NCBI GenBank assembly: GCA_014729815.1
Contig: WJJG01000349.1
Location: forward strand, 1 to 51,894
DNA length: 51,894 bases
From: Candidatus Eiseniibacteriota bacterium
GTDB taxonomy: Bacteria; Eisenbacteria; RBG-16-71-46; CAIMUX01; WJJG01
Direction: 5' to 3'
Numbering within the stretch: position 1 is the first letter of the stretch; every line of letters starts with the position of its first letter. This document shows, one piece after another, positions 3,370 to 39,192 of the stretch. The translations under genes and the position numbers were made by a program. The notes beneath the pieces are model-generated. The model made no database searches. It saw only the letters and a program-made list of their open reading frames with translations, and had not been told where the DNA came from.

Positions 3370-3508
3370 GATCCACCTCCTGCGCAGCCGGACCGGAGCC
3401 GGAATGTACGATGCGTGACGCGCTGCGCCAATGGTTCCAGGCTGGAGACAAGGAAATGGTAGGCGTTCGAGCAATGAAGAACAAGCCAGCGGTCAGTGCG
3501 CTCTGTTG

Positions 3509-16300: not shown

Positions 16301-16693
16301 CTCGGGGAGAAGTTCGTCACTCGACTACATGGGAACAACCGCGTCATGGCGTACGCTGTTCCCCAGCCACAGGAGCCCGTGCGCGTAGTCGGGACGCTAG
16401 CACCGGATTGTCGCGGGGTCAACGAGGGCCGCCGCAGGGGCTGGCGGAAGACGCCGCGGCCTGGTTCGCTGCCTGGGGGCTTGGTTCGAGTGCCCACGCC
16501 CCATGGCCGAGTGCGGCCCGATCGGATCGCTTTGCGGAGGAAGGCACACCCACCTTCCGATACTATTGTAGTCGGCGATCATCCTATCGTCGGTGGCGTT
16601 CATTTCGATGATGCAACGATTTAGCGCTCAGTGTCGCCGCGCGACGCCTGTCCTCGCCGCGAGCGCGCGAGCCCCAGCCTGGGAGGAGATCCG

Positions 16694-20977: not shown

Positions 20978-21178
20978 GATTGCCTCCTTCTCCTTGCGCA
21001 TCCACCCTCCCGGTGGGTCACATTCATGCGGCTGTGGACGGGACGCCGATGCAGCCCGCGAATGTCATCGTGATTTGTCGTCGCAGAGACCGACACTCTT
21101 CGCTATTCCGAAGCCCTCTGGCAGAGCCAAGCCACCCCCGGTGGGATCCCTGGAGGAGGCTTGACGGATGCTGCCATA

Positions 21179-22876: not shown

Positions 22877-23122
22877 TGGCTCGTCTCCTTTCCATCGGGG
22901 CACTGACCCATCGGATTCGCTCCCTGCAGGGCGCGGCCCCCGAACCGCCGGGCCCGCCTGACATGTGCTCGCGACTCCCAACGACGGCCAGGCTCGATCG
23001 CCGATGGCCCAGACCGCGCGGACGGCAAGCACCTGCTTGCCCTGCATCATGCTGCCGCCCGCGGGTCTCGACGTGGCTCCTGACTGCCGATCACACGCCT
23101 TCACTCTCAAGCGCTGAACAGA

Positions 23123-26111: not shown

Positions 26112-26153
26112 AGCGGCCCGGGGGTGGTGCGCGGCATCAGAAAGGAGGCCTCC

Positions 26154-28436
26154 TTGCCAGAGCCTGCCGTTCGATTCTCACGAGGCTCCCGATCGTTGGC
26201 CCGCCCGATGCTTCTTCTGGGCCTGCTGGTCCTGGCCGGGCTGCCGATGGTCCTCGCCGGGCTGCCGATGGTCCTCTCGTCCGCTGCGATGCCGCCGCTC
26301 CCGGTTGGCGGACTGGCGGTGGCTCGCGCCGACGAGGCCGATCCTTCTCCCCGCGACACGCTTGATCTCCCCCCGGGCGACGCGCCGCCTCCCACCGCCT
26401 TCTCGCGCCTGGATGAGGCCGGCACGGCCGACGATCACGACGGCGCCGATCACCTGATCGTCCATCAGGTGACCGTCAACCGGGTCAAACCGACCGGCGT
26501 GGCGGTGGGCGAGGAGTACGTCCTATATAAGGTGCTGACTCCTGCCGGCGCGCGCGATCTCGCCGTGCAGACCTGGCGCTACGAGCCCTGGTCGAGCACG
26601 ATCGAGGTGCGCGAGGCGAACCTCCTGCGCGATGGCCAGCGGATCGCCGTCGATGTCGGCCAGTTGCGCGACCTGCCCGCGCCGCAGTACGGGATCTACT
26701 GGAACGCGCGGCACATGACCCTGCAGCTCCCGCGCCTCTTCGTGGGAGATGGTATCGAGCTGCGGGTCTATCGCAAGGGGTACAGCTACGCCCTGCTCGA
26801 AGGCCGGCAGGCCGGCGCGGGCAGCGATGACACCGGCCGAGGAGGCGGCGGAGACGGCGCGAGCGGCGGGCGCATCGCCGATCCGGCCACCGCCGACCTC
26901 GCGGGCGAGACGACCTTCGAGCCGGAGCCGGGCGATGAGAAATACATCCCCCCGATGCCCGGCGAGTATTTCGATATCATCCTCTTCGAGGCCAACGTGC
27001 CGATCCTCGAGAAGCGCTACACGCTGATCCTGCCGCCCCAGAAGCGCCTGCACTCGGAGATCTACAACGCGCCGCTCTACGCCAACACGACCTACAACGC
27101 CGAGGAGACGCACTACGCCTGGTGGGCGCTGGATATGCCCGCCCGCCCGCGCGAAGCGCGCCGCGCGGCGCTCTCGGATGTGGCCGCCAAGGTGGTCGTG
27201 GCCACGGTGGAGAGCTGGGAGGCGAAGAGCCGCTGGTTCTTCGATGCCAATCGCAATCAGTTCGAGGTCACGCCCGAGATTCAGGCCAAGGTCGACGAGA
27301 TCCTCACCGAAGCCGGGGTGGCCGACGGCACCGATGCCGAGAAGGGCGAGGTGCTGGTGCACTGGGTGGCACAGAACATTCGCTACAGCGGGCAGACGAT
27401 GGGCGAGGGTGAGGGATTCACGCTGCACCCGGGATCGATGATCTTCGAGCAGCGCAGCGGCGTGTGCAAGGACATCGCCGGGATGCTGGTCACCATGATG
27501 CGCGCGGCGGGGATGGACTCCTACGCGGCAATGACCATGGCCGGCAGCCGCATCGAGGCCGTGCCCGCCGATCAGTTCAACCATTGCGTCTGCGCTCTGC
27601 GCTGCGCCGACGGCAGCTTCGAGATGTACGACCCGACCTGGGTGCCCTACATGAACGACATCTGGTCGAAGTACGAGACCGAGCAGCAGTACCTGATCGG
27701 CACGCCCGAGGGCGAGCCGCTCGCCTCGATCCCCTACAGCCCGCCGGAGGAGTCGCCGCTGCGCATCTCGCATGAAGCCGTGCTCGCCGAGGACGGTACG
27801 CTCACCGGCACGATCACTCTGCGCGGGGAGGGGGTGATGGACTCGCGCCTGCGCGGCCTGGTCGGCATGCGGCGCGAACAGGACGTGGGACACGACATCG
27901 CCGCGCTGCTCTCCCACTTCAGCCCCGCCGTGCGCGCGGTCGACTTCGAGCACCCGTCGCGCGACGACTTCAGCCAGAAGATGTGGATCCGCATCCGCTA
28001 CGAGGCGCCCGAGTTCGCGCTGCCGGCCGACCGGGGCCTGGAATTCCGCAGCCCGATGATGGCGATGACGATGAACGACGGCTGGCTCTTCCGTGCCGGC
28101 ACGACCGAGTGGGAGGAAGAGCGCACCAGCGACGTCTTCTTCTATTTCACGCAGCTCATCGAGGGTACCGAGCGGATACGCCTGCCGGCGGGGTACGCCG
28201 CCATGGAGACCCCCACATCCGACACGGTCGATGAGACCTACGCCTACTTTCGCGGCGTGAGCGAGATGGATGGGCCGGACCTGCTCATCAGGCAGCATGC
28301 CGAAGTGCGCAGGAGGCAGATCCCCCCGGACGGCTTCGCGGGATTGCGCCGTGCGGTCGAGGAAGCCCACGAATGGGAGGCTGTGCTCTACCGCGTGGCG
28401 CCCGAGGAAAAGAGCGCGGAAGGAGGTGCGCGATGA
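26154..28436 (+). CDS. Exported DUF3857-like plus transglutaminase-core (Cys-His-Asp) protein
   Basis: The frame is that of ORF 26124..28436. The preferred start is TTG 26154, with AAAGGAGG at 26141-26148 and a 5-nt spacer. ATG 26208 is the alternative. Signal peptide: ..MLLLGLLVLAGLPMVLAGLPMVLSSAA. The N-terminal beta-rich domain is like DUF3857. Transglutaminase core: SGVCKDIAGMLVTMMRAAGMDSY (Cys codon 27465-27467), ..FNHCVCAL.., ..FEMYDPTW... Confidence 0.8.
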   Translation: MPEPAVRFSRGSRSLARPMLLLGLLVLAGLPMVLAGLPMVLSSAAMPPLPVGGLAVARADEADPSPRDTLDLPPGDAPPPTAFSRLDEAGTADDHDGADHLIVHQVTVNRVKPTGVAVGEEYVLYKVLTPAGARDLAVQTWRYEPWSSTIEVREANLLRDGQRIAVDVGQLRDLPAPQYGIYWNARHMTLQLPRLFVGDGIELRVYRKGYSYALLEGRQAGAGSDDTGRGGGGDGASGGRIADPATADLAGETTFEPEPGDEKYIPPMPGEYFDIILFEANVPILEKRYTLILPPQKRLHSEIYNAPLYANTTYNAEETHYAWWALDMPARPREARRAALSDVAAKVVVATVESWEAKSRWFFDANRNQFEVTPEIQAKVDEILTEAGVADGTDAEKGEVLVHWVAQNIRYSGQTMGEGEGFTLHPGSMIFEQRSGVCKDIAGMLVTMMRAAGMDSYAAMTMAGSRIEAVPADQFNHCVCALRCADGSFEMYDPTWVPYMNDIWSKYETEQQYLIGTPEGEPLASIPYSPPEESPLRISHEAVLAEDGTLTGTITLRGEGVMDSRLRGLVGMRREQDVGHDIAALLSHFSPAVRAVDFEHPSRDDFSQKMWIRIRYEAPEFALPADRGLEFRSPMMAMTMNDGWLFRAGTTEWEEERTSDVFFYFTQLIEGTERIRLPAGYAAMETPTSDTVDETYAYFRGVSEMDGPDLLIRQHAEVRRRQIPPDGFAGLRRAVEEAHEWEAVLYRVAPEEKSAEGGAR
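26235..26276 (+). repeat. Perfect 21-bp in-frame tandem duplication inside the signal peptide of the transglutaminase-like gene
   Basis: gccgggctgccgatggtcctc occurs at 26235-26255 and again at 26256-26276. The encoded sequence is AGLPMVL-AGLPMVL. Confidence 0.95.
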
Positions 28437-30505
28437 GAACGCCAGGCCCGACCCACCCGCGATCTCTCGGCGCCGCAGTCCCGCGGCTTCGGGATGCGCT
28501 GCCCGGTTGCTTCGCACTGGCCGCCATGGCCCTCGTGCTCGCCTGCGCGGGTGCGCCGGCTCTGGGGGCTCCGCTGGACGCATCCGGCGACTACGACATC
28601 GGCGCATTGCTGCGCGAGGCCGACGCCGAGTTCGATCTCGCGCAGCAGGATGCGGTGGTCCTGCTCAAGCGCCAGGATCTGCGCATCGCACCCGATGGCG
28701 CGCGCCGCACGACGGTCCATCGCATCGTCTGGATGCGCACCGAGCTGGCGATGGAGACCTACGCCGACCTGCGCGTACCCTACCGCTCCGATCGCGCCGA
28801 GCTGGAGGTGCACACGCTGCGCACCTGGCGCGACGAGCGCTGGTGGCCCGATTCGGTGCGCGTCAGTCCGACCGCCGTGGTCGAGACGCTGCCCGGCGCG
28901 GTGGCCGGCGCCGACGCATACACGGCCCTGCGCGAGACGATGCTGCTGCACGACGGCGTCGAGCTGCCCTGCATCGTCGAGACGCGCTACACGATCTCCG
29001 AGGCGCCGCCGCTGACGGACGATCTGGCCCGCGCCGGTGCGCGTATCACCGGACTGGCGGCCTTCGCGCACGATGGGCTGTGGCGCTTCGCGCAGCACGA
29101 TCCGGTGGTGCGCTCGGAGCTGCGCATCACGGTGCCCGATGAGAGCAGCCTCCAGCAGATCTCGCGCAGCGGCGCCGCGGGACTGGATACGTCCCAATCC
29201 CGTCGCGTGGAGGGCGGGCATCTCTACGTATGGCACATGCGCAACGTGCCGCGCATTCCACAGCCCACCCCAGCCGATCCACTGCAGGTCACGCCGCACG
29301 TCGTCTGGTCGCGCTGGCCTTCGTGGGAAACGTTGGGGCGCATCTATCACACGGCGTTCGAAAGTGCCGCGCGACTCGAATGCCCCTCGCTGGGGAGGGT
29401 GCTGTGCGACTCGCTGCGGGCGGCCATCGCGCGTGAGCCGGGCCCCCGCGCGGTAGCCGGCGCGGTGGCCGACTTCATCGGCCGCTGGACGCGGCACGTG
29501 GGAGCCGATGCCGACTTCTGGGCGCTGCAGCCGCGTTCCGCGCTGCGCACCTGGGAGACGGCCTACGGGCATGCGTACGATCGGGCCGTGTTGGCCGCCG
29601 CGCTCTTCCGGGAGGCCGGCCTGCAGGCCGAACCGATGCTGCGCAGTCGGGGTCGGGGGGAGATCGCCGAGCGCATCCCCGCGCTGAGCTGGTTCGGTCC
29701 TCTGCTGGTGCGCGTGCGCGCCGCCGGTCCGAGCGGCGGGATCGAGAGCGACTACGAAGGCATCTACGATCCGGCCCACGGGACTCTGCAGGAGGGCCTG
29801 GCAACTGCGGCGGGATACACGATCTGGATCCCGGGTGAAAACCCGCAACGGATCGCCGCGCCGCAGAGGGGCCACCTGCAGGTCTCGCTGCGGCTCGAGC
29901 CGGGCGAGGAGGAGCAGTGGACGGGCCAGGGCTACCTGCGCGCCAGTGGTGGTCTGGCGCCGCATGCGGCGATGACCGGGCTGGGCACGCAGGCCCAGGA
30001 TCATCTCGCGGCGGTGGCCGGGGTGATCGAAGGCGCGGAGCTCCGCGATCACAACGTCTCGCGGCTGCAGCCCGACCGGGTCGTGGCGGGATTCGAGTTT
30101 GGATGGAAGGAGCCGGAGCCGGACGATCACGGTCGCGTGCGCCTATCGCTCGGCGAACCCGCGGGAGGTGTGCTGGCGCAGCTTCCCAGCGACGTCTCGC
30201 TCTTCGATGAAGATCGCGAGTCCCCGGTGCTGCTGCCCTTTCCGATGACGCAGACGCTCGAGCTGTGGATCAAGGTCGGCGAGGAGGCCGAGCGGGTGGT
30301 CTACGTCCCGGAGGCGTACGGAGGCGAGCACAGCCTGGGCACCGCGCGTCTGGCGGTCGAGCAGGAGGGCGACTGGCTGCACCTGACGCGCGAGATCGCC
30401 ATCGTTCGCGCCGAGATCGCCGCGCGGACCTGGCCCCAGCTACGGGCGCTGCTGCTGCGCGAGACGCTGGAGCGGAACCGGGTGGTGCTGCTGGAGGCGG
30501 AGTAA
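28433..30505 (+). CDS. Exported DUF3857/DUF3858-like protein with a degenerate (Cys-less, His-less) transglutaminase-like core
   Basis: ATG 28433 overlaps the upstream stop (ATGA, 28433-28436). GGAAGGAGG lies at 28418-28426. Signal peptide: ..CFALAAMALVLACAGAPALGAP. The N-terminal part matches the DUF3857-like pattern (VVLLKRQDLRIAPDGARRTTVHRIVWMRTE..). The region aligned to the catalytic Cys reads AYGHAYDRAVLAAALFREAGLQAEP, with no Cys. The His position reads WFGPLLVRV. ..IYDPAHG is retained. Confidence 0.75.
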   Translation: MRTPGPTHPRSLGAAVPRLRDALPGCFALAAMALVLACAGAPALGAPLDASGDYDIGALLREADAEFDLAQQDAVVLLKRQDLRIAPDGARRTTVHRIVWMRTELAMETYADLRVPYRSDRAELEVHTLRTWRDERWWPDSVRVSPTAVVETLPGAVAGADAYTALRETMLLHDGVELPCIVETRYTISEAPPLTDDLARAGARITGLAAFAHDGLWRFAQHDPVVRSELRITVPDESSLQQISRSGAAGLDTSQSRRVEGGHLYVWHMRNVPRIPQPTPADPLQVTPHVVWSRWPSWETLGRIYHTAFESAARLECPSLGRVLCDSLRAAIAREPGPRAVAGAVADFIGRWTRHVGADADFWALQPRSALRTWETAYGHAYDRAVLAAALFREAGLQAEPMLRSRGRGEIAERIPALSWFGPLLVRVRAAGPSGGIESDYEGIYDPAHGTLQEGLATAAGYTIWIPGENPQRIAAPQRGHLQVSLRLEPGEEEQWTGQGYLRASGGLAPHAAMTGLGTQAQDHLAAVAGVIEGAELRDHNVSRLQPDRVVAGFEFGWKEPEPDDHGRVRLSLGEPAGGVLAQLPSDVSLFDEDRESPVLLPFPMTQTLELWIKVGEEAERVVYVPEAYGGEHSLGTARLAVEQEGDWLHLTREIAIVRAEIAARTWPQLRALLLRETLERNRVVLLEAE

Positions 30506-30531
30506 CCCTGTCGCAGGTCAGTTGGTGAGTG

Positions 30532-31296
30532 ATGTGTCCGATTTCGACCCGCGATGACACCCTCACTCCCGAGACGCGGATCTTCGTGTCCTATGCCTCT
30601 GAGGACGAGAAGGTCGCTTCGGGAGTCTGCCGCGCTCTGGAGCAGGCCGGATTCAGCTGCTGGCTGTCGTCACGGGACCTGGATCCGGGCAAGGACTACG
30701 CCGATCAGATCCTGCGGGCCATCCAGCACTCGCAGACCCTGGTGGTGATTCTGTCTCCGGCCGCGGTGGACTCCCCACACGTCGTGCGAGAAGTCGATCT
30801 CTCGGTGTCCCGCAGGATTCCGACGCTCGTGATGCGCCTCGCCGAGATCGAGCTCTCCGGATCACTGGCCTACTACCTTCGCACGACACACTGGCTCGAT
30901 GCGTTTGAGGGGGAGCCGTCGGAGCACTATGGGAGCCTGGTCTGGTCACTGTGCGGCCTGCTTGGCCTCGGCCGCACTCGCTCGGCCGCAGAGATCCTCG
31001 CCTCGGAAGACATCTCAGAACTCTGGAGGCGACTGATTCAGGCCCATTCCCGAGACGGCATCCGTGGTGTCCGCTATGAGATCGAGCAGGTGCGCAGCCG
31101 TGCACCGAACGATCCTCAACTCCGACGCTTGTTGGATAGCGCCATCGAGGCCGAACGACGGATGTCGAGCCCAGCCGAGCGAAGATCTTCCTCCCCCATT
31201 GGGTCCGGCCCGCAGGGCAGCGGAACCTCCGGCTCGGGCTGTCTGGTGTTCATCATTCTCGCCGTGATTCTGGCAATCGTCCTCGCACTTGTGTGA
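30532..31296 (+). CDS. Tail-anchored TIR-domain protein (TIR, helical linker, Ser/Gly-rich spacer, C-terminal TM helix)
   Basis: ATG 30532 (GTG 30529 is also in frame), 26 nt after the upstream stop. TIR pattern: RIFVSYASEDEKVASGVCRALEQAGFSCWLSSRDLDPGKDYADQILRAIQHSQTLVVILSPAAVDSPHVVREVDLSV. The conserved Glu candidate is in VVREVD, codon 30790-30792. The extreme C-terminus CLVFIILAVILAIVLALV-stop is a hydrophobic helix with no residues after it. Confidence 0.8.
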   Translation: MCPISTRDDTLTPETRIFVSYASEDEKVASGVCRALEQAGFSCWLSSRDLDPGKDYADQILRAIQHSQTLVVILSPAAVDSPHVVREVDLSVSRRIPTLVMRLAEIELSGSLAYYLRTTHWLDAFEGEPSEHYGSLVWSLCGLLGLGRTRSAAEILASEDISELWRRLIQAHSRDGIRGVRYEIEQVRSRAPNDPQLRRLLDSAIEAERRMSSPAERRSSSPIGSGPQGSGTSGSGCLVFIILAVILAIVLALV

Positions 31297-31619
31297 GCAG
31301 AGCCGGCATCCGCAGGCGCCTGTTCCGACCAGTCACATGACGAATGGTGCGCCAGCAAAGCAGTCTGGCGACCAGCTACCTCACCTCCAACGCCGCAGCC
31401 GCTCTGCGGGTCCGCCGACCCCCCCTCCGCTCGCTCCGCTTCCAGTCGCCGATAGACCCGCAGCCAGTCGTCGAAATGCACCCCGCGCAGCTCGGCAGGC
31501 GGCGGCGCGTCATCGTGGGGGACGAGCGGGACCGAGTCGATCCTCGCGATCTCCTTCCGGTCGAGCGCATGTCGCCCCTACTCGTCCGATTGCATGGAGG
31601 CTCGATAGGCGCGCCATCC

Positions 31620-32147
31620 TCACCGCGCCATGCGTCGGATCTGCGCCAGATCCAGATCGCCTTTGGCGCCCCACCCGCGGCGGCCGGGCGGGATGGCGGG
31701 GCGGAACTTCTCGTACAGCGCGAACGCGATCTCGCTGAGCTCGTCCAGATCGTGTGCGCATGCCAGCTTCTCCATCGCCTTGCGGACGCGGGCGAGGTCG
31801 TCGCCGAACTTCTGCTTCAGGTAGGCGGTGGTCTTCTCGGGGTCGACCGGTTGATCCTTGACCACCGCACGTACGCCGTCGTCGGTCTCCTGAGCCGGGA
31901 CCGTGCGGCCGCACAGCTCGACCCAGAACTCCTCGCCCAGTCCGTGCTTGGGAGCCGGATGGCCGTCCTTGGTGTAGCGACGCTTGTACACCCCGAGCCG
32001 ACGGCCCTTCGACTGCGCCGTCAGGCCCGCCATCGCCTTGCCCAGTGAGAGCGCCTCGTCGGGCTCGAAGCCCAGTCGCTCGGCGACCACACTCGCCCAG
32101 AGGGTGAGCACCGGAGCCCGATTGATCTGTATCACGCTGCCGGGCAT
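31620..32147 (-). CDS. Conserved hypothetical protein (175 aa), function unknown
   Basis: ATG 32145-32147. MPGSVIQINRAPVLTLWASVVAERLGFEPDEALSLGKAMAGLTAQSKGRRLG.. resembles an uncharacterised family I recall from actinobacterial and cyanobacterial genomes. No name is assigned. The composition is coding-like. It is convergent with the TIR gene. Confidence 0.7.
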   Translation of the reverse strand: MPGSVIQINRAPVLTLWASVVAERLGFEPDEALSLGKAMAGLTAQSKGRRLGVYKRRYTKDGHPAPKHGLGEEFWVELCGRTVPAQETDDGVRAVVKDQPVDPEKTTAYLKQKFGDDLARVRKAMEKLACAHDLDELSEIAFALYEKFRPAIPPGRRGWGAKGDLDLAQIRRMAR

Positions 32148-32530: not shown

Positions 32531-35488
32531 ATGAATCCACATCGAGCGCTGATCTTGCTCCTCGCGCTGCTCGCTCTGCCGGCGAGCGGGGCCGCCGCAT
32601 GGGGCGGCTTCATCGAGAACCGCGGGCAGATCGATCCGCGCGCGGCGTTCCACGGCTCGGCCGGTGCGAGCGAGCTCTACTTCACCGCGGACGGATTCGT
32701 CATCGATCTCCCGCTGCCCGCCCCCCCGGGCGGGGAGGGAGCGTGGGACGGGTCCGGACCTTCCGTGGCGCGCTGCGCCATCCGCTTCACCTTCGTGGAT
32801 CCGCTGCACCAGAAGCTCGGTGCAGATGCGCACCGGGGTGCAGCGATCGAACCGCGCCGCCCAAGCGGGGCCGAGTACAACTTCCTGATCGGCCGCGATC
32901 CGGCAGGGTGGCAGACGAACGTGCGGTGCTACGACGAGCTCGTCTATCGCGGGCTTTGGCCCGGTATCGATCTGCACTTCTTCGCTGATGGGCACGGGCT
33001 GTCGTACGCCGCATCCGACGATGCGGGGGCGCCGCTTCCCGATTCGCTCTTCCGCATAGAGGGCGCCGACCGAATCGCGGCCACCATGCGCGGCGGACGG
33101 CAGGTGCAAGAGATGGCGACCGCCGCAGGTGTGCTGCGGCACGAGCAGGCGCGCGGGGCTGATGGCGTAATCCGCGGGCGGATCGTTCGGGCCACCCCCG
33201 GAAGCGGTGACGGGATCGGGGGACGCGCCGCTGCGCCTTCCGGCCGTGCGGCGGGATGGCGGAGCGCGGTGGGATCCCACAGCGCGGTCGCGCTGCACGG
33301 CGCGGCTGACGGCGACCGCTCGATCTTCTACTGGAGCACCTTCCTGGGCGGCAGCGGCAGCGAACGCTGCAACGACATCGTCGTCGACAGCCTCGATCGG
33401 CCGATTCTCACCGGACGCACCTCCTCGCTGGACTTCCCCACGACCGCCGGCGCCTATCAGGAGGAGTTCGGCGCGCGGCATGCGCACGCCTTTGTCGCCA
33501 AGCTCGATGCGGACGGCAGTCAGCTTCTCTGGTGCACCTATCTGGGCGGAGGGATCGAGGACACCGGACACCGTCTGGTTCTGGATACGGGCGAGAATGT
33601 GATCGTCACCGGCTGGACCGAGTCGCTCGACTTCCCCACCACCGCCGGCGCGTTCGCCGAAGGCTACGGCGGTGGCCCGGAGGACGGCTTTGTGGCCAAG
33701 CTGGATGCGAGCGGCAGCACTCTGCTGTGGGGCAGCTACCTGGGCGGCGAGCTGGCCGATCGGGTCTACGGCCTGGCGATCGGCGAAGATGGCGGTCCAA
33801 TCCTCACTGGCAGTACCGCCTCGGGCGACTTCCCGACCACGCCGGGCGCCTTCGGGGAGGAGTTCGGCGGCGGCGGCGAGGATGGCTTCGTCGCCAAGCT
33901 CGACGCCCTCGGCACGCAGCTCCTCTGGAGCACCTACCTGGGCGGCGGGGCGCAGGAGTACGGCTACGAAGTGGTGCTCGAGGCCGACGGCCGGCCGCTG
34001 GTGAGCGGACAGACCGAATCGATCGACTTCCCGACTACCGGCGGCGCCTACAGCGAAACGCACAACGGCGGATACGACGCCTTCCTGACCCTTTTGAGCG
34101 CCGATGGCAGCGCTCTGGTGTGGAGCAGCTTCCTGGGAGGAGCGGCCACCGACACCGGGCACGGGCTGGCGCTGGATGCGCTGGGCAATCCGCTCGTTTC
34201 GGGGCGCACCAGCTCGAGCGATTTCCCCACGACCGGCGGCGCCTTCGATGAGACGCACAACGGCGCCTACGACGGGTTCGTCGCCAAGTTCGACTCGCTG
34301 GGAACACAGCTTCTCTGGAGCACCTACTTGGGCGGGAGTGAAGCCGAGCAGAACTACCCGCTGGCGCTTGATGCGGGCGGCAATCCGCTGATCGCCGGCA
34401 TGACCGCCTCGACCGACTTCCCGGTCGGCAGCGGCGCGCAGGACGACACATTCAACGGCGGCTACTACGATGCCTTCCTGGCCAGGCTCAGCGCGGCGGG
34501 GGATTCGTTGCTCTGGGGCAGCTACCTTGGTGGTGAGGCTTCGGATTGGGGCCTGGCACTGGCGTTGACCTCGGATGGGCTGCCGATCGTGGGCGGCGGC
34601 GCCGAATCGGCCGACTTTCCCACCACGCCGGGCGCCTTCGCGGAGGAGTATGGCGGCGGACATCGCGATGCGTTCGTGACGATGCTCGCGGTGCAGCTCG
34701 TAGCGGCGTGCTGCTTCCCCGACGGCTCTTGTGCGCTGCACACCTCTGCGGCGTGCGGTGATCTGGGCGGCGAATGGATGCCGGAGTGGAACCAGTGCGA
34801 CCCGAATCCCTGCCCGATGCCCGAGCGGGCCTGCTGTGTGGAAGTCGAGTGCACGGTGGTCACCGAGGACTCCTGCCTGACCTTGGGCGGCACCTGGTAC
34901 AGCGAGCTGGAGAGCTGCGATCCAAACCCGTGTCCGGCAGCCTGCTGCTTCTGGAACGGCGACTGCACGCTTCTTAGCGAGGACGAATGCCTGGCCCTCG
35001 ATGGGCTGTGGATCTCGGAGATGCTCTCGTGCGATCCGAATCCCTGTCCCCCGGGGGTGGGTGTCTGCTGCGTGGGGGCGACCTGCTCGGTGGTGACCGA
35101 GGACTCGTGTGCTGTGCTGGGCGGGGAGTGGTACAGCGAGCTCGAGAGCTGCGACCCGAATCCCTGCCAGGAAGAGTCTCCGATGGATGCCGGCGATGCC
35201 CGGGCTACGGTGCGCACCGAGCTGCTCGGGATCCATCCCAACCCAACCCATTCGCTCGCGCTGGTGCGTTTCGCCCTGGCCGCGGAGTCCCGCGTCACGG
35301 TGCGCATCTATGACGTGACCGGGCGCGAGGTGCGCACGCTGCACGATCGCACGACCGCGCCGGGCACACACACGCTGCTCTGGGACGGCCGCGGCAGCGA
35401 CGGCGCGCGCGTGAGCGGGGGGATCTACCTCTGCCGCTTCGTGGCCGCGGGGCGGGAGGATGCCCGGAAGCTATTCGTGTTCCGGTGA
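32531..35488 (+). CDS. Exported SBBP beta-propeller-repeat protein with 4 Cys-rich repeats and a FlgD-Ig/T9SS-type CTD
   Basis: ATG 32531. Signal peptide: MNPHRALILLLALLALPASGAAA. There are at least 6 SBBP-type repeats: AFVAKLDADGSQLLWCTYLGG, GFVAKLDASGSTLLWGSYLGG, GFVAKLDALGTQLLWSTYLGG, AFLTLLSADGSALVWSSFLGG, GFVAKFDSLGTQLLWSTYLGG, AFLARLSAAGDSLLWGSYLGG. Four 6-Cys repeats follow. CTD: ..VTVRIYDVTGREVRTLH..LWDGRGSDGARVSGGIYLCRFVA..KLFVFR. Confidence 0.88.
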   Translation: MNPHRALILLLALLALPASGAAAWGGFIENRGQIDPRAAFHGSAGASELYFTADGFVIDLPLPAPPGGEGAWDGSGPSVARCAIRFTFVDPLHQKLGADAHRGAAIEPRRPSGAEYNFLIGRDPAGWQTNVRCYDELVYRGLWPGIDLHFFADGHGLSYAASDDAGAPLPDSLFRIEGADRIAATMRGGRQVQEMATAAGVLRHEQARGADGVIRGRIVRATPGSGDGIGGRAAAPSGRAAGWRSAVGSHSAVALHGAADGDRSIFYWSTFLGGSGSERCNDIVVDSLDRPILTGRTSSLDFPTTAGAYQEEFGARHAHAFVAKLDADGSQLLWCTYLGGGIEDTGHRLVLDTGENVIVTGWTESLDFPTTAGAFAEGYGGGPEDGFVAKLDASGSTLLWGSYLGGELADRVYGLAIGEDGGPILTGSTASGDFPTTPGAFGEEFGGGGEDGFVAKLDALGTQLLWSTYLGGGAQEYGYEVVLEADGRPLVSGQTESIDFPTTGGAYSETHNGGYDAFLTLLSADGSALVWSSFLGGAATDTGHGLALDALGNPLVSGRTSSSDFPTTGGAFDETHNGAYDGFVAKFDSLGTQLLWSTYLGGSEAEQNYPLALDAGGNPLIAGMTASTDFPVGSGAQDDTFNGGYYDAFLARLSAAGDSLLWGSYLGGEASDWGLALALTSDGLPIVGGGAESADFPTTPGAFAEEYGGGHRDAFVTMLAVQLVAACCFPDGSCALHTSAACGDLGGEWMPEWNQCDPNPCPMPERACCVEVECTVVTEDSCLTLGGTWYSELESCDPNPCPAACCFWNGDCTLLSEDECLALDGLWISEMLSCDPNPCPPGVGVCCVGATCSVVTEDSCAVLGGEWYSELESCDPNPCQEESPMDAGDARATVRTELLGIHPNPTHSLALVRFALAAESRVTVRIYDVTGREVRTLHDRTTAPGTHTLLWDGRGSDGARVSGGIYLCRFVAAGREDARKLFVFR
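34706..35170 (+). repeat. Four tandem ~37-40-aa Cys-rich repeats (CC-x5-C-x7-C-x13-C-x4-C, each ending CDPNPC)
   Basis: The four units are ACCFPDGSCALHTSAACGDLGGEWMPEWNQCDPNPCP, ACCVEVECTVVTEDSCLTLGGTWYSELESCDPNPCP, ACCFWNGDCTLLSEDECLALDGLWISEMLSCDPNPCP and VCCVGATCSVVTEDSCAVLGGEWYSELESCDPNPCQ. Units 2 and 4 are also very similar at the nucleotide level. Confidence 0.9.
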
Positions 35489-35966: not shown

Positions 35967-37049
35967 ATGCGTAGCACCTCGAACCCCTCGCCCCAGCGCG
36001 CCGAATACGTCGCGCGGATCAACCGGGTGATCGACTACATCGAGGTCCACCTGGGCGAAGAGCTTCCGCTGAGCCGACTGGCGAAGGTAGCCTACTTCTC
36101 GCCGTTCCACTTCCACCGCATCTTTCGCGCCTTCGTTGGCGAGACGGTGGGGCAGTTCCTGCGGCGGGTGCGTCTCGAGCGGGCCGCCAGCCGGCTGGTC
36201 TACAGTCCCGACGTGCCGATCACCGAGATCGCGCTCGACTGTGGATTCTCGGGTTCGGAAACCTTCGCGCGGGCCTTCCGCGACGCCTTCGGGATGACCG
36301 CCAGCGAGTGGCGGGCGGGCGGGCACCGGACGGCGCAAGGCGAGACTGCTTGGGGTGACGCGCCGACTGGCGGATCGCCCTCCGACGCCGAGTGCCGCGA
36401 CATCATGGACGGCGCCCCGCGGCAGGAGCGCAAGATCGGCAAGCTCGAGCGCAAGCCGGATCATACGCTTCGCAAGCAGCGCCAGGATTTCCAGCTCTCC
36501 TCCCCGTATCTTGATCCCATCACCCGCAACATGAAATGGAGGATGAGCATGAAGACGAACCAGGAGATCCAAGTCGAGGTCAAGCAGATGCCGGAGATGC
36601 ACGTCGCCTACGTGCGCCACATCGGCCCCTACGCAGGAGACGACAAACTCTTCCGCGGGCTCTTCGAGAAGCTGATGAAGTGGGCCGGACCACGGGGACT
36701 CTTGCGCTTCCCCGAGACGCAGATGCTCTCGGTCTACCACGACGATCCGGAAGTCACCGAGGAGGAGAAGCTGCGGGTCAGCGTCTGCATCACGGTCCCG
36801 AAGGGCACACCGGTCGAGGGCGAGATCGGCGAGATGACGATCCCCGCCGGGCAATACGCGGTGGGGCACTTCGAGCTCTTGCCCTCCGAGTTCGGCGACG
36901 CCTGGCAGGCGCTCTACGGCGGCTGGCTGCCCGACAGCGGGTACGCACCCGACGAGCGGCCCTGTTACGAGCTGTATCTCAACGATCCGAACGAGCATCC
37001 GGAGGGGAAGCACATCGTCGAGATCTGCATTCCGGTGAGGGCGCGGTAG
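35967..37049 (+). CDS. AraC-family transcriptional regulator with C-terminal GyrI-like effector-binding domain
   Basis: ORF 35865..37049, trimmed to ATG 35967. AraC HTH: LSRLAKVAYFSPFHFHRIFRAFVGETVGQFLRRVRLERAASRL..ITEIALDCGFSGSETFARAFRDAFGMTASEWR. GyrI-like: VEVKQMPEMHVAYVRHIGPY.., ..CYELYLNDPNEHPEGKHIVEICIPVR. Confidence 0.85.
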   Translation: MRSTSNPSPQRAEYVARINRVIDYIEVHLGEELPLSRLAKVAYFSPFHFHRIFRAFVGETVGQFLRRVRLERAASRLVYSPDVPITEIALDCGFSGSETFARAFRDAFGMTASEWRAGGHRTAQGETAWGDAPTGGSPSDAECRDIMDGAPRQERKIGKLERKPDHTLRKQRQDFQLSSPYLDPITRNMKWRMSMKTNQEIQVEVKQMPEMHVAYVRHIGPYAGDDKLFRGLFEKLMKWAGPRGLLRFPETQMLSVYHDDPEVTEEEKLRVSVCITVPKGTPVEGEIGEMTIPAGQYAVGHFELLPSEFGDAWQALYGGWLPDSGYAPDERPCYELYLNDPNEHPEGKHIVEICIPVRAR

Positions 37050-37394
37050 GGGGGCGGACTTCTCGCGGGAGGATCAGAGCCTGGCGCAGCTGCCGAGGAA
37101 CGCATGCAGCAGCTCGCAGCTAGGTGGATGGCGCGATCGGCCGATTTCCTTGAGCCGATCCGGGAAGGAGGAGCTGGGGCGTACATGTTTCGACTTCTGC
37201 GCTGGCAAGCTCACAGGTGAAAGGGCTTCTAGTCTGCGGCCGCACAAGCGGGCACGTCTCGCAGGCAAGCACCCGAGCGGAGATCGCTCCTGCCGACTGC
37301 CGCGTCAGGGCATCGTGATCGCGATATCCTCTCGGGCCGAAGCACGTTCCGACGAGCAAACAGTTCAATCGCGGAGCTTGACGCATTCACGCTC

Positions 37395-37410
37395 AGGGGA
37401 GAATCTTGCT
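37395..37410 (+). promoter_or_regulatory. Weak sigma-54 (-24/-12)-like element upstream of the beta-propeller lipoprotein gene
   Basis: The sequence is AGGGGAGAATCTTGCT. GG lies at 37396-97 and GC at 37408-09, giving the correct 12-nt register. The -12 TTGCT is perfect. The -24 element has only GG rather than TGGCAC. It lies ~40 nt upstream of ATG 37451, and a sigma-54 activator is encoded 1.7 kb downstream. Confidence 0.15.
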
Positions 37411-37450
37411 CGTGACATCGCTCTCATGAAGCCTCCAGACGAGGTCTCCA

Positions 37451-38734
37451 ATGAAATGCCTCCCACTCTCATGGTATGAGCGCTTGCGCGGAAATCGGGT
37501 CCTATCTCTGCATTTGGTGCTTTTGCCTGTAGTCCTAGCGTTCACGTGTCCTGAAGCGGACACATCTCAGGTCGGACAAGTCGACGACGGACATGTTGAC
37601 CGCATTATCAGCTCCGACCCCCTGGAGCCTACCGTTTCCTACAACCTGGTGGAAAGGTGGCGTGCTTCGGTTGATGCCGCGGGCAGCCCCCTCTTCGGTT
37701 CGGTCACCGATGTCGTGACCGACTCGAGCGGTAACCTCTACATTCTCGATTCACAGCTCCAACAGGTGTTGGTGATCTCTCAAGACGGAAGAGTATTGCG
37801 TCGGCTTGGGGCATACGGAGAAGGACCGGGCGAGTTTCTGTTCGCGGCAGACCTTACCATGGTCGGTGATGGGCTATTGGGAATCGTGGATGCGCAGAAA
37901 GGTACGGTCGTGCTCATGCAATCGGATGGAACCCCGCTCGGAACGTGGGTCCCACATTGGGAGCCGGAATCACGCCTGGAGCCGCTCATGGCCAGCGCAA
38001 TCTCAGACGGCTTCGTGATTTCATGTAAGACCCGGGAACGAACAGATGAAGAGATGATCTATCGATACTTCCTTGGCCTCTTCAATAGCGAATCTTCTCA
38101 TCCGAGAATCCTGCTAGAGAGACGATCCAAGCGCCGCCTTGGAAGACCACTACATTTCGATGAACGGGAGTCCGAGTCGTTTGCTGTCTTCGCTACAAGC
38201 GATGTGGGCGAAATCTACGCGGCACCCGAATTCGCAGCGTACCGCATTCACGTATTCGGCGCCGGCGGCAAGCTAGAACGGATCATAGGGCGCGAATACG
38301 AGTCTGTTGCACGCACACAGCAGCGCAAAGCTGCCATCCGTGAGGTGTGGGAGGCGTACTTCTCTCAATGGAGGGGGACGACTGTTTCCGTGGCTAGCTC
38401 AGAGCGTGATGTTCAGAATATTAACATTAGGCCTGATGGGCAGCTCTGGATTGAAACGAGTCAGGGTTGGTTCCGGAATCCCGACGGAGTAGCCCTGACG
38501 CTCGATGAATTCGATTGCAGCGGTCGCTTTCGGCGACATGTGCAGTTGCTTGGCGAGATCGACGCGGCCAACGACTTCCTCCTTATCCGAGGCTCTGTTG
38601 CCCTGCGGATCACATCTGGGGTCGAATCCCTCGGTGGCTGGCTTGGAAGTGAACCTGACGAGCCACAGGACTCAGTGGGCGAAGACGTCCCCGCACTCAT
38701 CCTCTACGATCTCTGTCTCGTCACAGACCAATGA
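37451..38734 (+). CDS. Putative lipoprotein with 6-bladed beta-propeller (NHL/TolB-like) fold
   Basis: ATG 37451 with GAGGT upstream. Signal/lipobox-like: LSLHLVLLPVVLAFTC. The repeat flavour is ..DSSGNLYILDSQLQQVLVISQDGRVLRRLGAYGEGPGEFLFAADL... G+C is visibly lower than the surroundings. Confidence 0.65.
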   Translation: MKCLPLSWYERLRGNRVLSLHLVLLPVVLAFTCPEADTSQVGQVDDGHVDRIISSDPLEPTVSYNLVERWRASVDAAGSPLFGSVTDVVTDSSGNLYILDSQLQQVLVISQDGRVLRRLGAYGEGPGEFLFAADLTMVGDGLLGIVDAQKGTVVLMQSDGTPLGTWVPHWEPESRLEPLMASAISDGFVISCKTRERTDEEMIYRYFLGLFNSESSHPRILLERRSKRRLGRPLHFDERESESFAVFATSDVGEIYAAPEFAAYRIHVFGAGGKLERIIGREYESVARTQQRKAAIREVWEAYFSQWRGTTVSVASSERDVQNINIRPDGQLWIETSQGWFRNPDGVALTLDEFDCSGRFRRHVQLLGEIDAANDFLLIRGSVALRITSGVESLGGWLGSEPDEPQDSVGEDVPALILYDLCLVTDQ

Positions 38735-38870
38735 AGTCCCTCCGAGCTGAGCGCAACCATGACGGGGCTAGTCAGTTGACCCCGATGGCAAGCAATGGTA
38801 TCGTTTGCGCGATGGTTGGCTGCCGATTGTGATCGGACGCTTGGTGCTCGCGGGTCCGTGGAGGCTTGCC

Positions 38871-39173
38871 ATGTGGAAGCTTATCCCCCTCAGTCGAGGC
38901 CATCTCGTCTCTCTTTGCTGCCTCGCCCTTGCTGGGCTTCTATTGCTTGCGGGCGTGGCCGAAGGGGCACCGCTGCCGGTTGCTCAAGGACCCAGAACAC
39001 CCGACGGAGACATCGACGACTACCCCACACTCGTTTCCCCACCGTCTTCGTCTTCTGCTCTGGCGAGCCACCCTGCTCGTCTGAGTGTTGCGGTCGCCGC
39101 TTTGTGGGACGACCAACTTCCAGCAGTTCCGCGTCGGATTCGTCATGCTGGTTGCGTCCGCAAATGCGCGTGA
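38871..39173 (+). CDS. Possible small secreted protein (100 aa)
   Basis: ATG 38871 is preceded by GTGGAGG (38858-64) with a 6-nt spacer. Signal peptide: MWKLIPLSRGHLVSLCCLALAGLLLLAGVAEGAP. I recognise no homology. It ends 20 nt before the GTG 39193 start proposed for the activator. Confidence 0.35.
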   Translation: MWKLIPLSRGHLVSLCCLALAGLLLLAGVAEGAPLPVAQGPRTPDGDIDDYPTLVSPPSSSSALASHPARLSVAVAALWDDQLPAVPRRIRHAGCVRKCA

Positions 39174-39192
39174 CTTCCGCGAAGAGGTCCTT

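What the first reader, a model, noticed from the sequence alone, without database searches (positions are those of the whole stretch)
30532..31296. TIR domain with a C-terminal tail-anchor transmembrane helix and no recognisable sensor or partner domain
Seen in sequence:
- A ~125-aa TIR-like N-terminal domain (RIFVSYASEDEK...SPHVVREVDLSV).
- A helical region (..ISELWRRLIQAHSRDGIRGVRYEIEQVRSRAPNDPQLRRLLDSAIEAERR..).
- A Ser/Gly-rich spacer (SSPIGSGPQGSGTSGSG).
- A terminal hydrophobic helix CLVFIILAVILAIVLALV ending at the stop codon.

Established knowledge: catalytic bacterial and eukaryotic TIR NADases use a conserved Glu after a small hydrophobic stretch. Glu87 (codon 30790-30792) is positioned like it.

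Inference: a cytoplasm-facing TIR is tethered to the membrane by a tail anchor. The TIR effectors I recall usually pair TIR with STING, SLOG/Macro partners, cNMP-binding or APAZ modules. A bare TIR plus tail anchor is unusual.
Basis: partly seen in the sequence, partly recalled or inferred. Interest (0 to 1): 0.7.

Follow-up and report, generated by a model that had tools for sequence, protein, structure and literature searches.

The report
Tail-anchored bacterial TIR-domain protein
This gene really does encode a TIR domain tethered to the membrane by one helix at its very end, but membrane tethering is the commonest layout among its nearest relatives, so it is a short member of a large, untested bacterial family rather than an oddity.

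Summary
ORF 30532-31296 (+) encodes 254 aa: a TIR_2 domain (Pfam E=1.4e-21; the model matches only TIR structures), a low-confidence helical stretch, a Ser/Gly linker, and an 18-residue very hydrophobic helix that ends at the stop codon. Glu87 lies on the canonical TIR catalytic column. It aligns with the mutationally tested E74 of Cat1 and is Glu in 96% of 450 related TIR domains.

The claim that this is unusual does not hold. The TIR subfamily has about 26,000 representative clusters. With the TIR alone as query, 26 of the 40 best relatives carry a TM helix after the TIR, usually followed by TPR, FGE-sulfatase, WD40 or beta-helix domains. Complete tail-anchored forms recur (P0071, P0086, and the P0176/P0191/P0251 orthologues, whose TIR dN/dS is 0.07-0.15).

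No sensor or partner gene is conserved. The upstream DUF3857 gene pair occurs without a TIR gene in three related MAGs. There is no defence island, and the subfamily is almost absent from plasmid and phage records.

Most likely it is a cytoplasm-facing, tail-anchored TIR enzyme that acts on NAD+ and depends on self-association at the membrane. Its biological role (defence or signalling) is unknown. I rate it a new variant of a known kind, of modest interest.

The parts
30532..31296 (+). Complete ORF, 254 aa plus stop codon: the tail-anchored TIR protein
   Evidence: ORF list and translation. Codon-position GC is 0.64/0.50/0.75, a coding-like pattern but with lower GC3 than the flanking genes at 0.84-0.88.
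30577..30963 (+). TIR domain, residues 16-144
   Evidence: Pfam TIR_2 E=1.4e-21. AF2 gives strands and helices over 16-144 at high pLDDT. Foldseek top hits are all TIR domains.
30790..30792 (+). Codon of Glu87, at the canonical catalytic Glu column of TIR enzymes
   Evidence: Invariant in alignments A1 and A2. Glu in 431 of 450 related TIR domains. Aligns with Cat1 E74, whose E74A mutant loses function (PMC12162218).
30589..30591 (+). Codon of Ser20 (strand beta-A, F-x-S-Y motif), aligned with the Cat1 active-site residue S7
   Evidence: Ser in 373 of 450 domains. Alignment to Cat1. Cat1 pocket residues are listed in PMC12162218.
30772..30774 (+). Codon of Ser81, aligned with the Cat1 active-site residue S68
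   Evidence: Ser in 418 of 450 domains. Alignment. S68A is defective in PMC12162218.
30889..30906 (+). H-W-L-D-A-F motif (residues 120-125), the signature of this TIR subfamily near the end of the domain
   Evidence: H120, W121, L122, D123 and A124 are invariant in alignment A3 and invariant or nearly so in A1 and A2. W is present in 295 of 450 domains, and most of the rest are gaps.
30985..31188 (+). Alpha-helical juxtamembrane region, residues 152-219, with a weak TPR-like hairpin signature (..APNDPQLRRLL..)
   Evidence: AF2 helices 152-219 with pLDDT 51-75. Weak collinear similarity to the same region of P0071 and P0083. No Pfam family matches.
31189..31239 (+). Ser/Gly/Pro-rich flexible linker, residues 220-236
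   Evidence: Composition. No secondary structure predicted over about residues 220-234.
31240..31293 (+). C-terminal transmembrane helix (tail anchor), residues 237-254, followed directly by stop codon 31294-31296
   Evidence: Kyte-Doolittle 19-mer mean 3.37 and Hessa sum about -6.5. AF2 helix 235-253. Equivalent terminal helices occur in the complete relatives P0071, P0086 and P0176.
26124..30505 (+). Context only: two tandem DUF3857/transglutaminase-like genes on the same strand, ending 26 bases before the TIR start codon. Probably co-transcribed, but not a conserved partner.
   Evidence: Pfam. The pair is conserved in L004-L006 without any TIR gene. No promoter-like or terminator-like site in 30200-31800.

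Best explanation
The gene encodes a tail-anchored inner-membrane protein.

**Layout (shown or directly inferred).** There is no signal peptide, and the only hydrophobic segment is the last 18 residues. The protein must therefore be inserted after translation, as known bacterial tail-anchored proteins are (YidC/SRP-type routes). The TIR domain then faces the cytoplasm. It is held on a stalk of about 70 helical residues plus a flexible Ser/Gly linker of about 20 residues.

**Family (shown).** The TIR belongs to a very large bacterial TIR_2 subfamily marked by F-x-S-Y, C-W, S-x5-E and H-W-L-D-A motifs. In this subfamily the TIR is typically N-terminal and cytoplasmic, followed by one TM helix and an extracytoplasmic TPR, FGE-sulfatase, WD40, beta-helix or solute-binding domain. 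The window protein is the minimal form: TIR plus anchor, with no outside domain.

**Activity (inferred).** The best-conserved columns are those that line the NAD+ pocket in Cat1 (Ser20, Ser81, Glu87). I therefore infer that the TIR is catalytically competent: an NAD+ glycohydrolase or cyclase. Like all studied TIR enzymes, it would become active only when TIR domains pack against each other.

**Role of the anchor (inferred).** Tethering confines the protein to two dimensions, so it sets the conditions for that self-association. The anchor could hold monomers apart until they cluster, or until the linker is cut, as proposed for Dictyostelium TirC. It could instead let the protein co-assemble with full-length TIR-TM receptors.

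**Biological role (open).** The output, whether NAD+ depletion and growth arrest or a signalling nucleotide, and the trigger are not known. The gene acts without a conserved neighbouring partner.
For: **Architecture**
- ORF, TIR profile and fold, linker and terminal helix.

**Catalytic site**
- Glu87 is invariant or Glu in 96% of related domains, and aligns with Cat1 E74.
- Ser20 and Ser81 align with Cat1 S7 and S68 and are Ser in 83% and 93% of domains. PMC12162218 lists both as pocket residues and reports the S68A and E74A mutants as defective in vivo.
- Glu in helix alpha-C is the defining feature of catalytic TIRs (10.64898/2026.04.20.719644).

**Family context**
- 25,966 representative clusters match at E<=1e-3.
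- A TM helix follows the TIR in 71 of 149 representatives and in 45 of the 62 with a single TIR.
- A TM helix follows the TIR in 26 of the 40 best hits when the TIR alone is the query.
- The query's own C-terminal half adds a median of -1.9 bits, so the ranking is not biased by its TM helix.
- Outside domains in relatives are TPR, SBP_bac_3, WD40, FGE-sulfatase, beta-helix, DUF4189 and OmpA.

**Tail-anchored relatives are real genes**
- P0071, P0086, P0176, P0191 and P0251 are complete genes inside their contigs.
- P0071 aligns with the query through TIR plus helical region.
- The three 216-aa orthologues show dN/dS of 0.07-0.15 in the TIR. They keep a hydrophobic C-terminal anchor.

**Stand-alone status**
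- Relatives share no conserved neighbours.
- The DUF3857 pair is conserved without a TIR gene.

**Precedents**
- Single-gene TIR systems in E. coli defend against phage and need the catalytic Glu (PMC11350192).
- A TM tether restrains the TirC NADase (PMC13142454).
- Bacterial tail-anchored proteins and their insertion routes are documented (PMC6794478, PMC3087755, PMC3426401).
Against: - No enzymatic, localisation or phenotype data exist for this protein or for any member of its subfamily that I could find.
- The aromatic Trp four residues before the catalytic Glu in TIR-STING, Cat1 and TLR6, which from my own knowledge corresponds to W204 of AbTir and W638 of SARM1, is His83 here. It is Q/Y/H/F across the family and never the majority Trp.
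- Most TLR-type TIRs that keep a Glu at this column have been regarded as scaffolds.
- The Cat1 pocket residue D33 aligns with Ser46 here.
- I could not inspect model coordinates, so the geometry of Glu87 is untested.
- The subfamily sits in housekeeping neighbourhoods and is almost absent from plasmids (2 of 72,556 records) and phages (1 of 50,697). This argues against a classical mobile defence role, though not against enzymatic activity.
- No close homologue of the full-length protein exists in the databases searched. The best shares 44% identity over the TIR only, so selection on this particular gene cannot be measured.
Confidence: 0.5

Rival explanations
1. Non-catalytic adaptor or co-receptor. 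The protein is a ligand-blind, membrane-bound TIR that joins the TIR domains of full-length TIR-TM-sensor receptors encoded elsewhere in the genome. It would act as a scaffold, amplifier or dominant-negative, as adaptor TIRs do in animals, with Glu87 conserved for structural reasons.
For: The nearest relatives are mostly receptor-like TIR-TM-outside-domain proteins. Many relatives carry 2-7 tandem TIRs, which shows a strong tendency for TIR-TIR assembly. The best PDB sequence match is Hydra TRR-2, and PMC7075850 notes a membrane-anchored Hydra TIR protein without a ligand-binding domain. The family lacks the Trp at position -4.
Against: No second TIR gene lies in the 52-kb window. The three most conserved columns coincide with NAD-pocket residues rather than with known interface loops. 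Recent work finds that even some TLR TIRs are catalytic (10.64898/2026.04.20.719644).
Confidence: 0.2
2. Functional unit with the upstream genes. The TIR gene is the third gene of an operon with the two DUF3857/transglutaminase-like envelope proteins, and it provides their cytoplasmic output.
For: Same strand. Only 26 bases separate the upstream stop from the TIR start. No promoter-like or terminator-like site was found between or after them.
Against: The DUF3857 pair is conserved in tandem in three related MAGs, with 53-60% and 36-40% identity, and none has a TIR gene. None of the six relatives whose contigs were examined has DUF3857 neighbours. The TIR gene's GC3 is 0.75 against 0.85-0.88 for the pair, which suggests later acquisition.
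Confidence: 0.1
3. Decaying remnant. The ORF is what is left of a longer TIR-TM-sensor gene after a deletion or nonsense mutation just after the TM helix, and it no longer has a function.
For: The stop codon follows the helix immediately, with no polar tail. The layout equals the first third of the common TIR-TM-sensor proteins. The gene has no close full-length homologue and lower GC3 than its neighbours.
Against: tblastn with 270 relatives finds no trace of an outside domain in the 323 bases downstream or anywhere nearby. All TIR signature residues are intact. Complete tail-anchored relatives exist, and one group of orthologues is under purifying selection. P0053 and P0089 also end exactly at the helix.
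Confidence: 0.1
4. The C-terminal hydrophobic stretch is a sorting signal (PEP-CTERM, GlyGly-CTERM or LPXTG type) on an exported protein, not a membrane anchor.
For: A Gly/Ser-rich segment directly precedes the hydrophobic helix, which superficially resembles GlyGly-CTERM signals.
Against: There is no N-terminal signal peptide or other hydrophobic segment. No basic cluster follows the helix. NCBIfam finds no sorting-domain model at E<=0.1. TIR domains act in the cytoplasm on NAD+.
Confidence: 0.02

Closest known systems
Uncharacterised bacterial TIR_2 (PF13676) subfamily with N-terminal cytoplasmic TIR, one TM helix and an outside TPR, FGE-sulfatase, WD40 or beta-helix domain; tail-anchored members include P0071 (Pyrinomonadaceae MAG), P0086 and P0176/P0191/P0251
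   Same: The TIR signature motifs are the same (F-x-S-Y, C-W, S-x5-E, H-W-L-D-A), with 35-48% identity over the TIR. The TIR is at the N-terminus and a TM helix follows it. P0071 also shares the helical juxtamembrane region and the terminal anchor.
   Different: The window protein has no extracytoplasmic domain at all and ends exactly at the helix. Its spacer between TIR and helix is longer (about 90 residues against about 30-70). No member has been studied experimentally, so the family gives no function.
Dictyostelium TirC: a TIR NADase of bacterial origin with a single transmembrane helix (PMC13142454)
   Same: A TIR domain plus one hydrophobic tether helix and a low-complexity linker, with no sensor domain. 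There the tether restrains an NADase that forms filaments and depends on its catalytic Glu. This is a working model for how an anchor can regulate a TIR.
   Different: The TirC helix is N-terminal and targets the ER of a eukaryote. Its TIR belongs to the TIR-STING clade. Membership of that clade was not tested and is unlikely.
[quoted passage not shown]
   Same: Stand-alone TIR proteins with no recognisable sensor domain that still sense phage proteins (portal, tail fibre) and need the catalytic Glu. This shows that a 'bare' TIR can be a complete system.
   Different: The E. coli genes lie in variable defence loci, whereas this gene and its relatives lie among housekeeping or envelope genes.
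Cat1, TIR-STING, TIR-SAVED, ThsB and SPARTA TIR-APAZ (characterised prokaryotic TIR enzymes)
   Same: The TIR fold is shared. Glu87, Ser20 and Ser81 align with Cat1 E74, S7 and S68. PADLOC and NCBIfam models of these systems match the TIR part only.
   Different: There is no CARF, STING, SAVED or APAZ domain, and no thsA, cyclase, pAgo or CRISPR genes nearby. All matches fall far below the family cutoffs, for example ThcB4 at 30.9 bits against 220.
Bacterial tail-anchored membrane proteins such as TssL, DjlC and Flk (PMC3426401, PMC6794478, PMC3087755)
   Same: A single TM helix at the extreme C-terminus, no signal peptide, and a cytoplasmic N-terminal domain.
   Different: The cytoplasmic domains are unrelated. 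Most described examples keep a few polar residues after the helix, whereas this protein has none.

Membership tests
TIR domain superfamily (Pfam TIR_2, PF13676) | Profile match above the curated gathering score | tested here: met
   77.7 bits against a cutoff of 28, E=1.4e-21, residues 17-132. PF01582 also passes, 41.8 against 21.3.
TIR domain superfamily (Pfam TIR_2, PF13676) | Flavodoxin-like beta-alpha fold of five strands, matching solved TIR structures | tested here: met
   AF2 predicts strands at 16-20, 42-45, 69-74, 98-102 and 120-123 with helices between them. The 50 best Foldseek PDB hits are TIR domains apart from two CMP N-glycosidases (MilB, BcmB).
Catalytic (NAD+-processing) TIR enzymes | Glutamate at the start of helix alpha-C, at the column of the validated catalytic Glu | tested here: met
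   Glu87 aligns with Cat1 E74 and with the Glu of TIR-STING in a profile alignment. It is Glu in 96% of 450 related domains.
Catalytic (NAD+-processing) TIR enzymes | Glu C-alpha within 3 Å of ThsB E85 after structural superposition (criterion of 10.64898/2026.04.20.719644) | not testable with these tools
Catalytic (NAD+-processing) TIR enzymes | Aromatic Trp four residues before the Glu (W-x-x-x-E, as in TIR-STING, Cat1 and TLR6; from my own knowledge also AbTir W204 and SARM1 W638) | tested here: not met
   The position is His83. The family has Q 147, Y 115, H 77 and F 36 of 450, and W is not among the six commonest residues. This is a frequent feature of such enzymes, not a universal one.
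Catalytic (NAD+-processing) TIR enzymes | NAD+ cleavage or cyclisation that depends on the Glu and on self-association | not testable with these tools
   Needs biochemistry.
Tail-anchored membrane proteins | A single TM helix within about 30 residues of the C-terminus, with no signal peptide or other TM segment | tested here: met
   The only segment with a Kyte-Doolittle 19-mer mean above 1.9 is at the C-terminus (peak window 236-254, mean 3.37). The next highest elsewhere is about 1.06, inside the TIR. AF2 predicts a helix at 235-253.
Tail-anchored membrane proteins | Post-translational insertion with the N-terminal domain in the cytoplasm | not testable with these tools
   Inferred from the lack of a signal peptide and from four Arg residues upstream of the helix.
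Thoeris (ThsB TIR with ThsA effector) | An adjacent thsA gene (SIR2-SLOG or Macro-TM) and a full-length match to a ThsB model | tested here: not met
   No SIR2, SLOG or Macro gene lies in the window. ThsB_TIR scores 19.5 bits, below its cutoff of 21.2. PADLOC ThsB hits are partial, with E from 3e-5 to 6e-3.
CBASS, Pycsar or type III CRISPR TIR effectors | TIR fused to a SAVED, STING, cNMP-binding or CARF sensor, with a cyclase or Cas10 locus nearby | tested here: not met
   Only the TIR part matches the SAVED_TIR model, at positions 5-86 of 404. No such domains or genes were found.
SPARTA (TIR-APAZ with short pAgo) | An APAZ domain and a neighbouring short Argonaute | tested here: not met
   PADLOC Aga_TIR models match over the TIR only, positions 4-84 of 430. 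No pAgo gene is present.
C-terminal sorting signals (PEP-CTERM, GlyGly-CTERM, LPXTG) | An N-terminal signal peptide, a signature motif, a TM helix and a basic tail | tested here: not met
   No signal peptide and no residues after the helix. No NCBIfam sorting model matches at E<=0.1.
TIR-TM-sensor receptor-like clade (uncharacterised) | An N-terminal TIR of the H-W-L-D-A type followed by a TM helix | tested here: met
   The motifs are present. A TM helix follows the TIR.
TIR-TM-sensor receptor-like clade (uncharacterised) | An extracytoplasmic C-terminal domain of 50 aa or more beyond the helix | tested here: not met
   The stop codon directly follows the helix, and no remnant of such a domain lies downstream.

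The most novel reading that the evidence does not exclude
The tail anchor is itself the regulatory device of a one-protein suicide or alarm module. Tethering keeps the TIR monomers too dispersed, or wrongly oriented, to form the composite active site. Perturbation of the membrane would then release or cluster the TIR domains and switch on NAD+ cleavage or synthesis of a signalling nucleotide. Such perturbation could come from phage entry or lysis proteins, lipid-domain reorganisation, or cutting of the exposed Ser/Gly linker by a protease. If so, the large TIR-TM-sensor clade would be a bacterial counterpart of Toll-like receptors with the orientation reversed. The tail-anchored forms would be its ligand-independent members that sense the state of the membrane.
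Probability: 0.15. Interest if true: 0.65.

Novelty: new variant of a known kind. Interest (0 to 1): 0.33.

Why it matters
TIR domains are central to immunity in animals, plants and bacteria. How their enzymatic activity is held in check is a current question. A TIR whose only added feature is a membrane tether is the simplest case for testing whether confinement to the membrane regulates TIR assembly, as was recently proposed for Dictyostelium TirC.

The more useful result is at the level of the family. Tens of thousands of bacterial proteins carry this TIR type at the cytoplasmic end of a single-pass membrane protein, with varied outside domains. None appears to have been studied. They are chromosomal rather than carried on mobile elements, and at least one tail-anchored lineage is under strong purifying selection. 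If these are transmembrane receptors with a TIR output, they would be a signalling class that has been overlooked.

For this particular gene the stakes are modest. It is one short member of that family, without close relatives and without informative neighbours.

Tried and rejected
**Searches and scans that did not explain the gene**
- PADLOC, NCBIfam and PHROGs gave only partial matches to the TIR part, so the gene belongs to no known defence system.
- The metagenome-contig scan with the full protein found no close relative.
- The viral-contig scan found eight weak relatives. The best, L007, is a TIR-TM-propeller protein.
- Plasmid and phage records gave 2 and 1 weak hits.
- Scans for promoters, terminators, tRNAs and repeats around the gene found no boundary or scar of a mobile element.
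- The downstream convergent 175-aa gene (31620-32147, minus strand) has no hit in Pfam, PADLOC, NCBIfam, PHROGs or the PDB, and no homologue next to TIR relatives. I rejected it as a partner.
- Literature searches for 'TIR-TM', for an N-terminal TIR with a periplasmic domain, and for membrane-anchored bacterial TIRs found no description of this architecture.

**Ideas considered and dropped**
- Truncated receptor. tblastn with 270 relatives found no leftover outside-domain coding sequence.
- The helical region as a death-like or EAD adaptor domain. There is no profile hit, and the only signal is a weak TPR-like hairpin similarity to P0071, P0083 and P0154.
- P0124 as a tail-anchored relative. 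Its gene runs off the contig end, so it is a fragment.
- Bias from the query's own TM helix in the architecture census. The C-terminal half adds a median of -1.9 bits, and a TIR-only re-ranking gives the same picture.

**Limits**
- The lower GC3 of the TIR gene is suggestive of acquisition but not decisive, because other parts of the window also have lower GC.
Full report
**1. The observation**

It encodes 254 residues from an ATG. A GTG one codon upstream is an alternative start.

- **TIR domain.** Pfam TIR_2 matches residues 17-132 at E=1.4e-21, 77.7 bits against a gathering score of 28. The classical TIR model also passes. An AlphaFold2 model built on a 12-sequence alignment gives a confident five-strand beta-alpha domain over residues 16-144. 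Every leading Foldseek match in the PDB is a TIR domain, including the enzymes AbTir, SARM1, SPARTA and RUN1.
- **C-terminal half.** After the TIR the model predicts helices over residues 152-219 at low to moderate confidence. An unstructured Ser/Gly/Pro stretch follows, and a final helix spans 235-253.
- **Terminal helix.** The last 18 residues, CLVFIILAVILAIVLALV, are by far the most hydrophobic part of the protein. The Kyte-Doolittle 19-mer mean is 3.37 and the summed Hessa-scale value is about -6.5. They run straight into the stop codon. No other segment could serve as a signal peptide or TM helix.
- **Glu87.** It is encoded at 30790-30792, as stated.

**2. The catalytic site**

Glu87 is invariant in two independent homologue alignments. 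The column is Glu in 431 of them.

A profile of the family aligned to PDB sequences puts this Glu on the Glu of the W-x-x-E-L motif of TIR-STING, Cat1 and TLR6. In Cat1 that residue is E74, and the pocket is lined by S7, H8, N9, N10, D33, S68 and E74. The E74A and S68A mutants are defective in vivo (PMC12162218). In the same alignment Cat1 S7 and S68 correspond to Ser20 and Ser81 of the window protein. These are Ser in 83% and 93% of the family. Conservation in this subfamily is therefore concentrated on NAD-pocket positions, which favours catalytic competence.

Two points weigh against this.
- The Trp four residues before the Glu in TIR-STING, Cat1 and TLR6, which I recall also applies to AbTir and SARM1, is His83 here. 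It is Q/Y/H/F across the family.
- A Glu at this column is necessary but not sufficient. A recent preprint does report cADPR production by some TLR TIRs (10.64898/2026.04.20.719644).

I could not inspect model coordinates, so the geometric criterion used in that preprint (C-alpha within 3 Å of ThsB E85) remains untested.

**3. How unusual the architecture is**

It is not unusual. A word-index-free search of 1.84 billion representative proteins found 25,966 clusters at E<=1e-3 and 10,862 at E<=1e-10.

I scanned the 149 best representatives for hydrophobic helices outside the TIR domains.
- 71 have a TM helix after the TIR.
- Of the 62 with a single TIR, 45 have a TM helix after it.
- Six look tail-anchored. 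One of these (P0124) later proved to be a contig-end fragment.

Two controls address bias from the query's own helix. The query's C-terminal half contributes a median of -1.9 bits to these scores. Re-ranking with the TIR domain alone leaves 26 of the 40 best with a TM helix, typically 30-70 residues after the TIR.

The longer relatives continue beyond the membrane with TPR repeats, a solute-binding domain, WD40 propellers, FGE-sulfatase, beta-helix, DUF4189 or OmpA domains. The subfamily is thus mainly a set of single-pass membrane proteins with a cytoplasmic N-terminal TIR. The window protein is its minimal form.

**4. Tail-anchored relatives are real genes**

- P0071 (244 aa, a Pyrinomonadaceae MAG) aligns with the query from the TIR through the helical region and ends in a TM helix. 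It is a complete gene inside a 23.9-kb contig.
- P0086 is likewise complete.
- P0176, P0191 and P0251 are 216-aa orthologues at 74-80% identity with a conserved terminal helix. Two of them lie next to ATP synthase F0 genes.
- For these three orthologues, dN/dS is 0.07-0.15 in the TIR, 0.5-0.7 in the linker and 0.4-0.6 in the anchor.

Tail-anchored solo TIRs are therefore maintained by selection in at least one lineage.

**5. Genomic context**

The window is a chromosomal stretch from a high-GC bacterium.
- Its genes include catalase, pyruvate kinase, a D-Ala-D-Ala carboxypeptidase, a sigma-54 activator and an AraC/GyrI-like regulator.
- Six large secreted proteins end in a FlgD_ig domain.
- The nearest genome matches are uncultured MAGs, one of them labelled Candidatus Latescibacteria.
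- I found no tRNA, repeat scar, defence gene or mobile-element gene near the TIR gene.

Two DUF3857/transglutaminase-like genes lie upstream on the same strand and end 26 bases before the TIR start. No promoter-like or terminator-like site separates them, so co-transcription is plausible. That pair is conserved in tandem in three related MAGs with no TIR gene anywhere in those loci. None of the six TIR relatives whose contigs I examined has such neighbours or shares any neighbour with the others.

The TIR gene has GC3 of 0.75 against 0.84-0.88 in the flanking genes. This is compatible with later acquisition but not decisive. The window holds no second TIR gene and no remnant of an outside domain downstream. 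The subfamily is nearly absent from plasmid and phage records.

**6. Mechanism**

*Shown here:* a TIR fold, conserved pocket residues, a single extreme C-terminal hydrophobic helix, no signal peptide, and no partner.

*Inferred from established knowledge of tail-anchored proteins* (PMC6794478, PMC3087755, PMC3426401): post-translational insertion that leaves the TIR in the cytoplasm.

*Inferred from what is known of TIR enzymes* (PMC12162218, PMC11350192, 10.64898/2026.04.20.719644): activity needs TIR-TIR packing to complete the active site. The membrane tether, the helical stalk and the flexible linker of about 20 residues would therefore set the conditions for assembly.

Dictyostelium TirC is a direct precedent for a TIR NADase restrained by one TM helix (PMC13142454). 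[quoted passage not shown]

I put about 0.5 on 'tail-anchored, catalytically competent TIR acting alone'. The structural part is near certain and the biological role is open. The rivals are a non-catalytic adaptor for TIR-TM receptors encoded elsewhere (0.2), functional coupling to the DUF3857 pair (0.1), a decaying remnant (0.1) and a sorting signal (0.02).

**7. Comparison with known systems, and novelty**

The protein is a member of the TIR_2 superfamily and fits the definition of a tail-anchored protein. It fails the membership tests for Thoeris, CBASS/Pycsar/Cat1-type effectors and SPARTA. Those systems need extra domains or partner genes that are absent here.

It works most like TirC and the solo E. 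coli TIR systems. It belongs by sequence to the uncharacterised TIR-TM clade.

In the searchable literature I found no description of tail-anchored bacterial TIRs or of the TIR-TM-outside-domain clade. The architecture is nonetheless common in sequence databases. I therefore rate it a new variant of a known kind, with modest interest (0.33).

Noticed in passing
window 139-3474(-), 9508-13242(+), 16631-19255(+), 19265-21001(-), 21179-23110(-), 32531-35488(+): Six large predicted secreted proteins (BNR/sortilin, SBBP propeller, peptidase C10 plus beta-helix, YCF48-like) all end in a FlgD_ig domain. One also has a weak Por_Secre_tail match. This looks like a lineage-specific C-terminal sorting tag used by many proteins of this organism.
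   Followed up: no
window 26124-28436(+) and 28373-30505(+); L004, L005, L006: A tandem pair of DUF3857/transglutaminase-like proteins (the second also has DUF3858) is conserved as a pair in three MAGs, at 53-60% and 36-40% identity. As listed, the two ORFs overlap by 64 bases, so the true start of the second gene is probably further downstream.
   Followed up: partly
window 31620-32147(-): A 175-aa gene convergent with the TIR gene has host-like GC3 (0.86). It has no match in Pfam, PADLOC, NCBIfam, PHROGs or PDB sequences, and no homologue near TIR relatives.
   Followed up: partly
L002 8001-8651; L015 2730-3380; L016 1156-1806: Orthologous 216-aa tail-anchored TIR proteins (74-80% identical) lie beside the ATP synthase F0 genes (atpE and two atpF) in two contigs. 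Their TIR dN/dS is 0.07-0.15. This is a stable chromosomal position that is unusual for a defence-type gene.
   Followed up: partly
proteins P0014-P0048: The highest-scoring relatives carry 2-7 tandem TIR domains in proteins of up to 2,330 aa, some followed by TM helices. This multi-TIR architecture was not explored.
   Followed up: no
proteins P0002-P0008, P0011, P0013: The closest relatives in the 90% clusters replace the membrane anchor with a small C-terminal helical domain recorded as PF26309 (motif L..LE..LA.YIGP.AK.LVKRAA). That family is newer than the local Pfam copy, so its nature could not be checked.
   Followed up: no
window 3712-5901(-): A pyruvate kinase homologue of 729 aa. The kinase barrel starts only at residue 244, so it has a long unassigned N-terminal extension. 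It lies in a stretch of lower GC (0.58-0.60).
   Followed up: no
window 37000-40000: A second stretch of lower GC (0.57-0.61) covers a DUF5128-like propeller gene (37451-38734), an unassigned ORF (38795-39634) and the start of an 885-aa sigma-54 activator ORF (39085-41742). The last two overlap as listed, so the gene starts are uncertain.
   Followed up: no
L007 5989-7464 (IMG/VR contig): The best viral-collection relative is a 491-aa TIR-TM protein whose C-terminal part looks like a repeated beta-propeller. This shows that the receptor-like form occasionally occurs on predicted viral or prophage contigs.
   Followed up: no
L018 2409-2958 (P0124): This apparent tail-anchored relative is cut by the contig end and is annotated as partial. 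Short TIR-TM entries in metagenome-derived sets can mimic tail anchors, so the census figure of about 4-6% is an upper estimate.
   Followed up: yes
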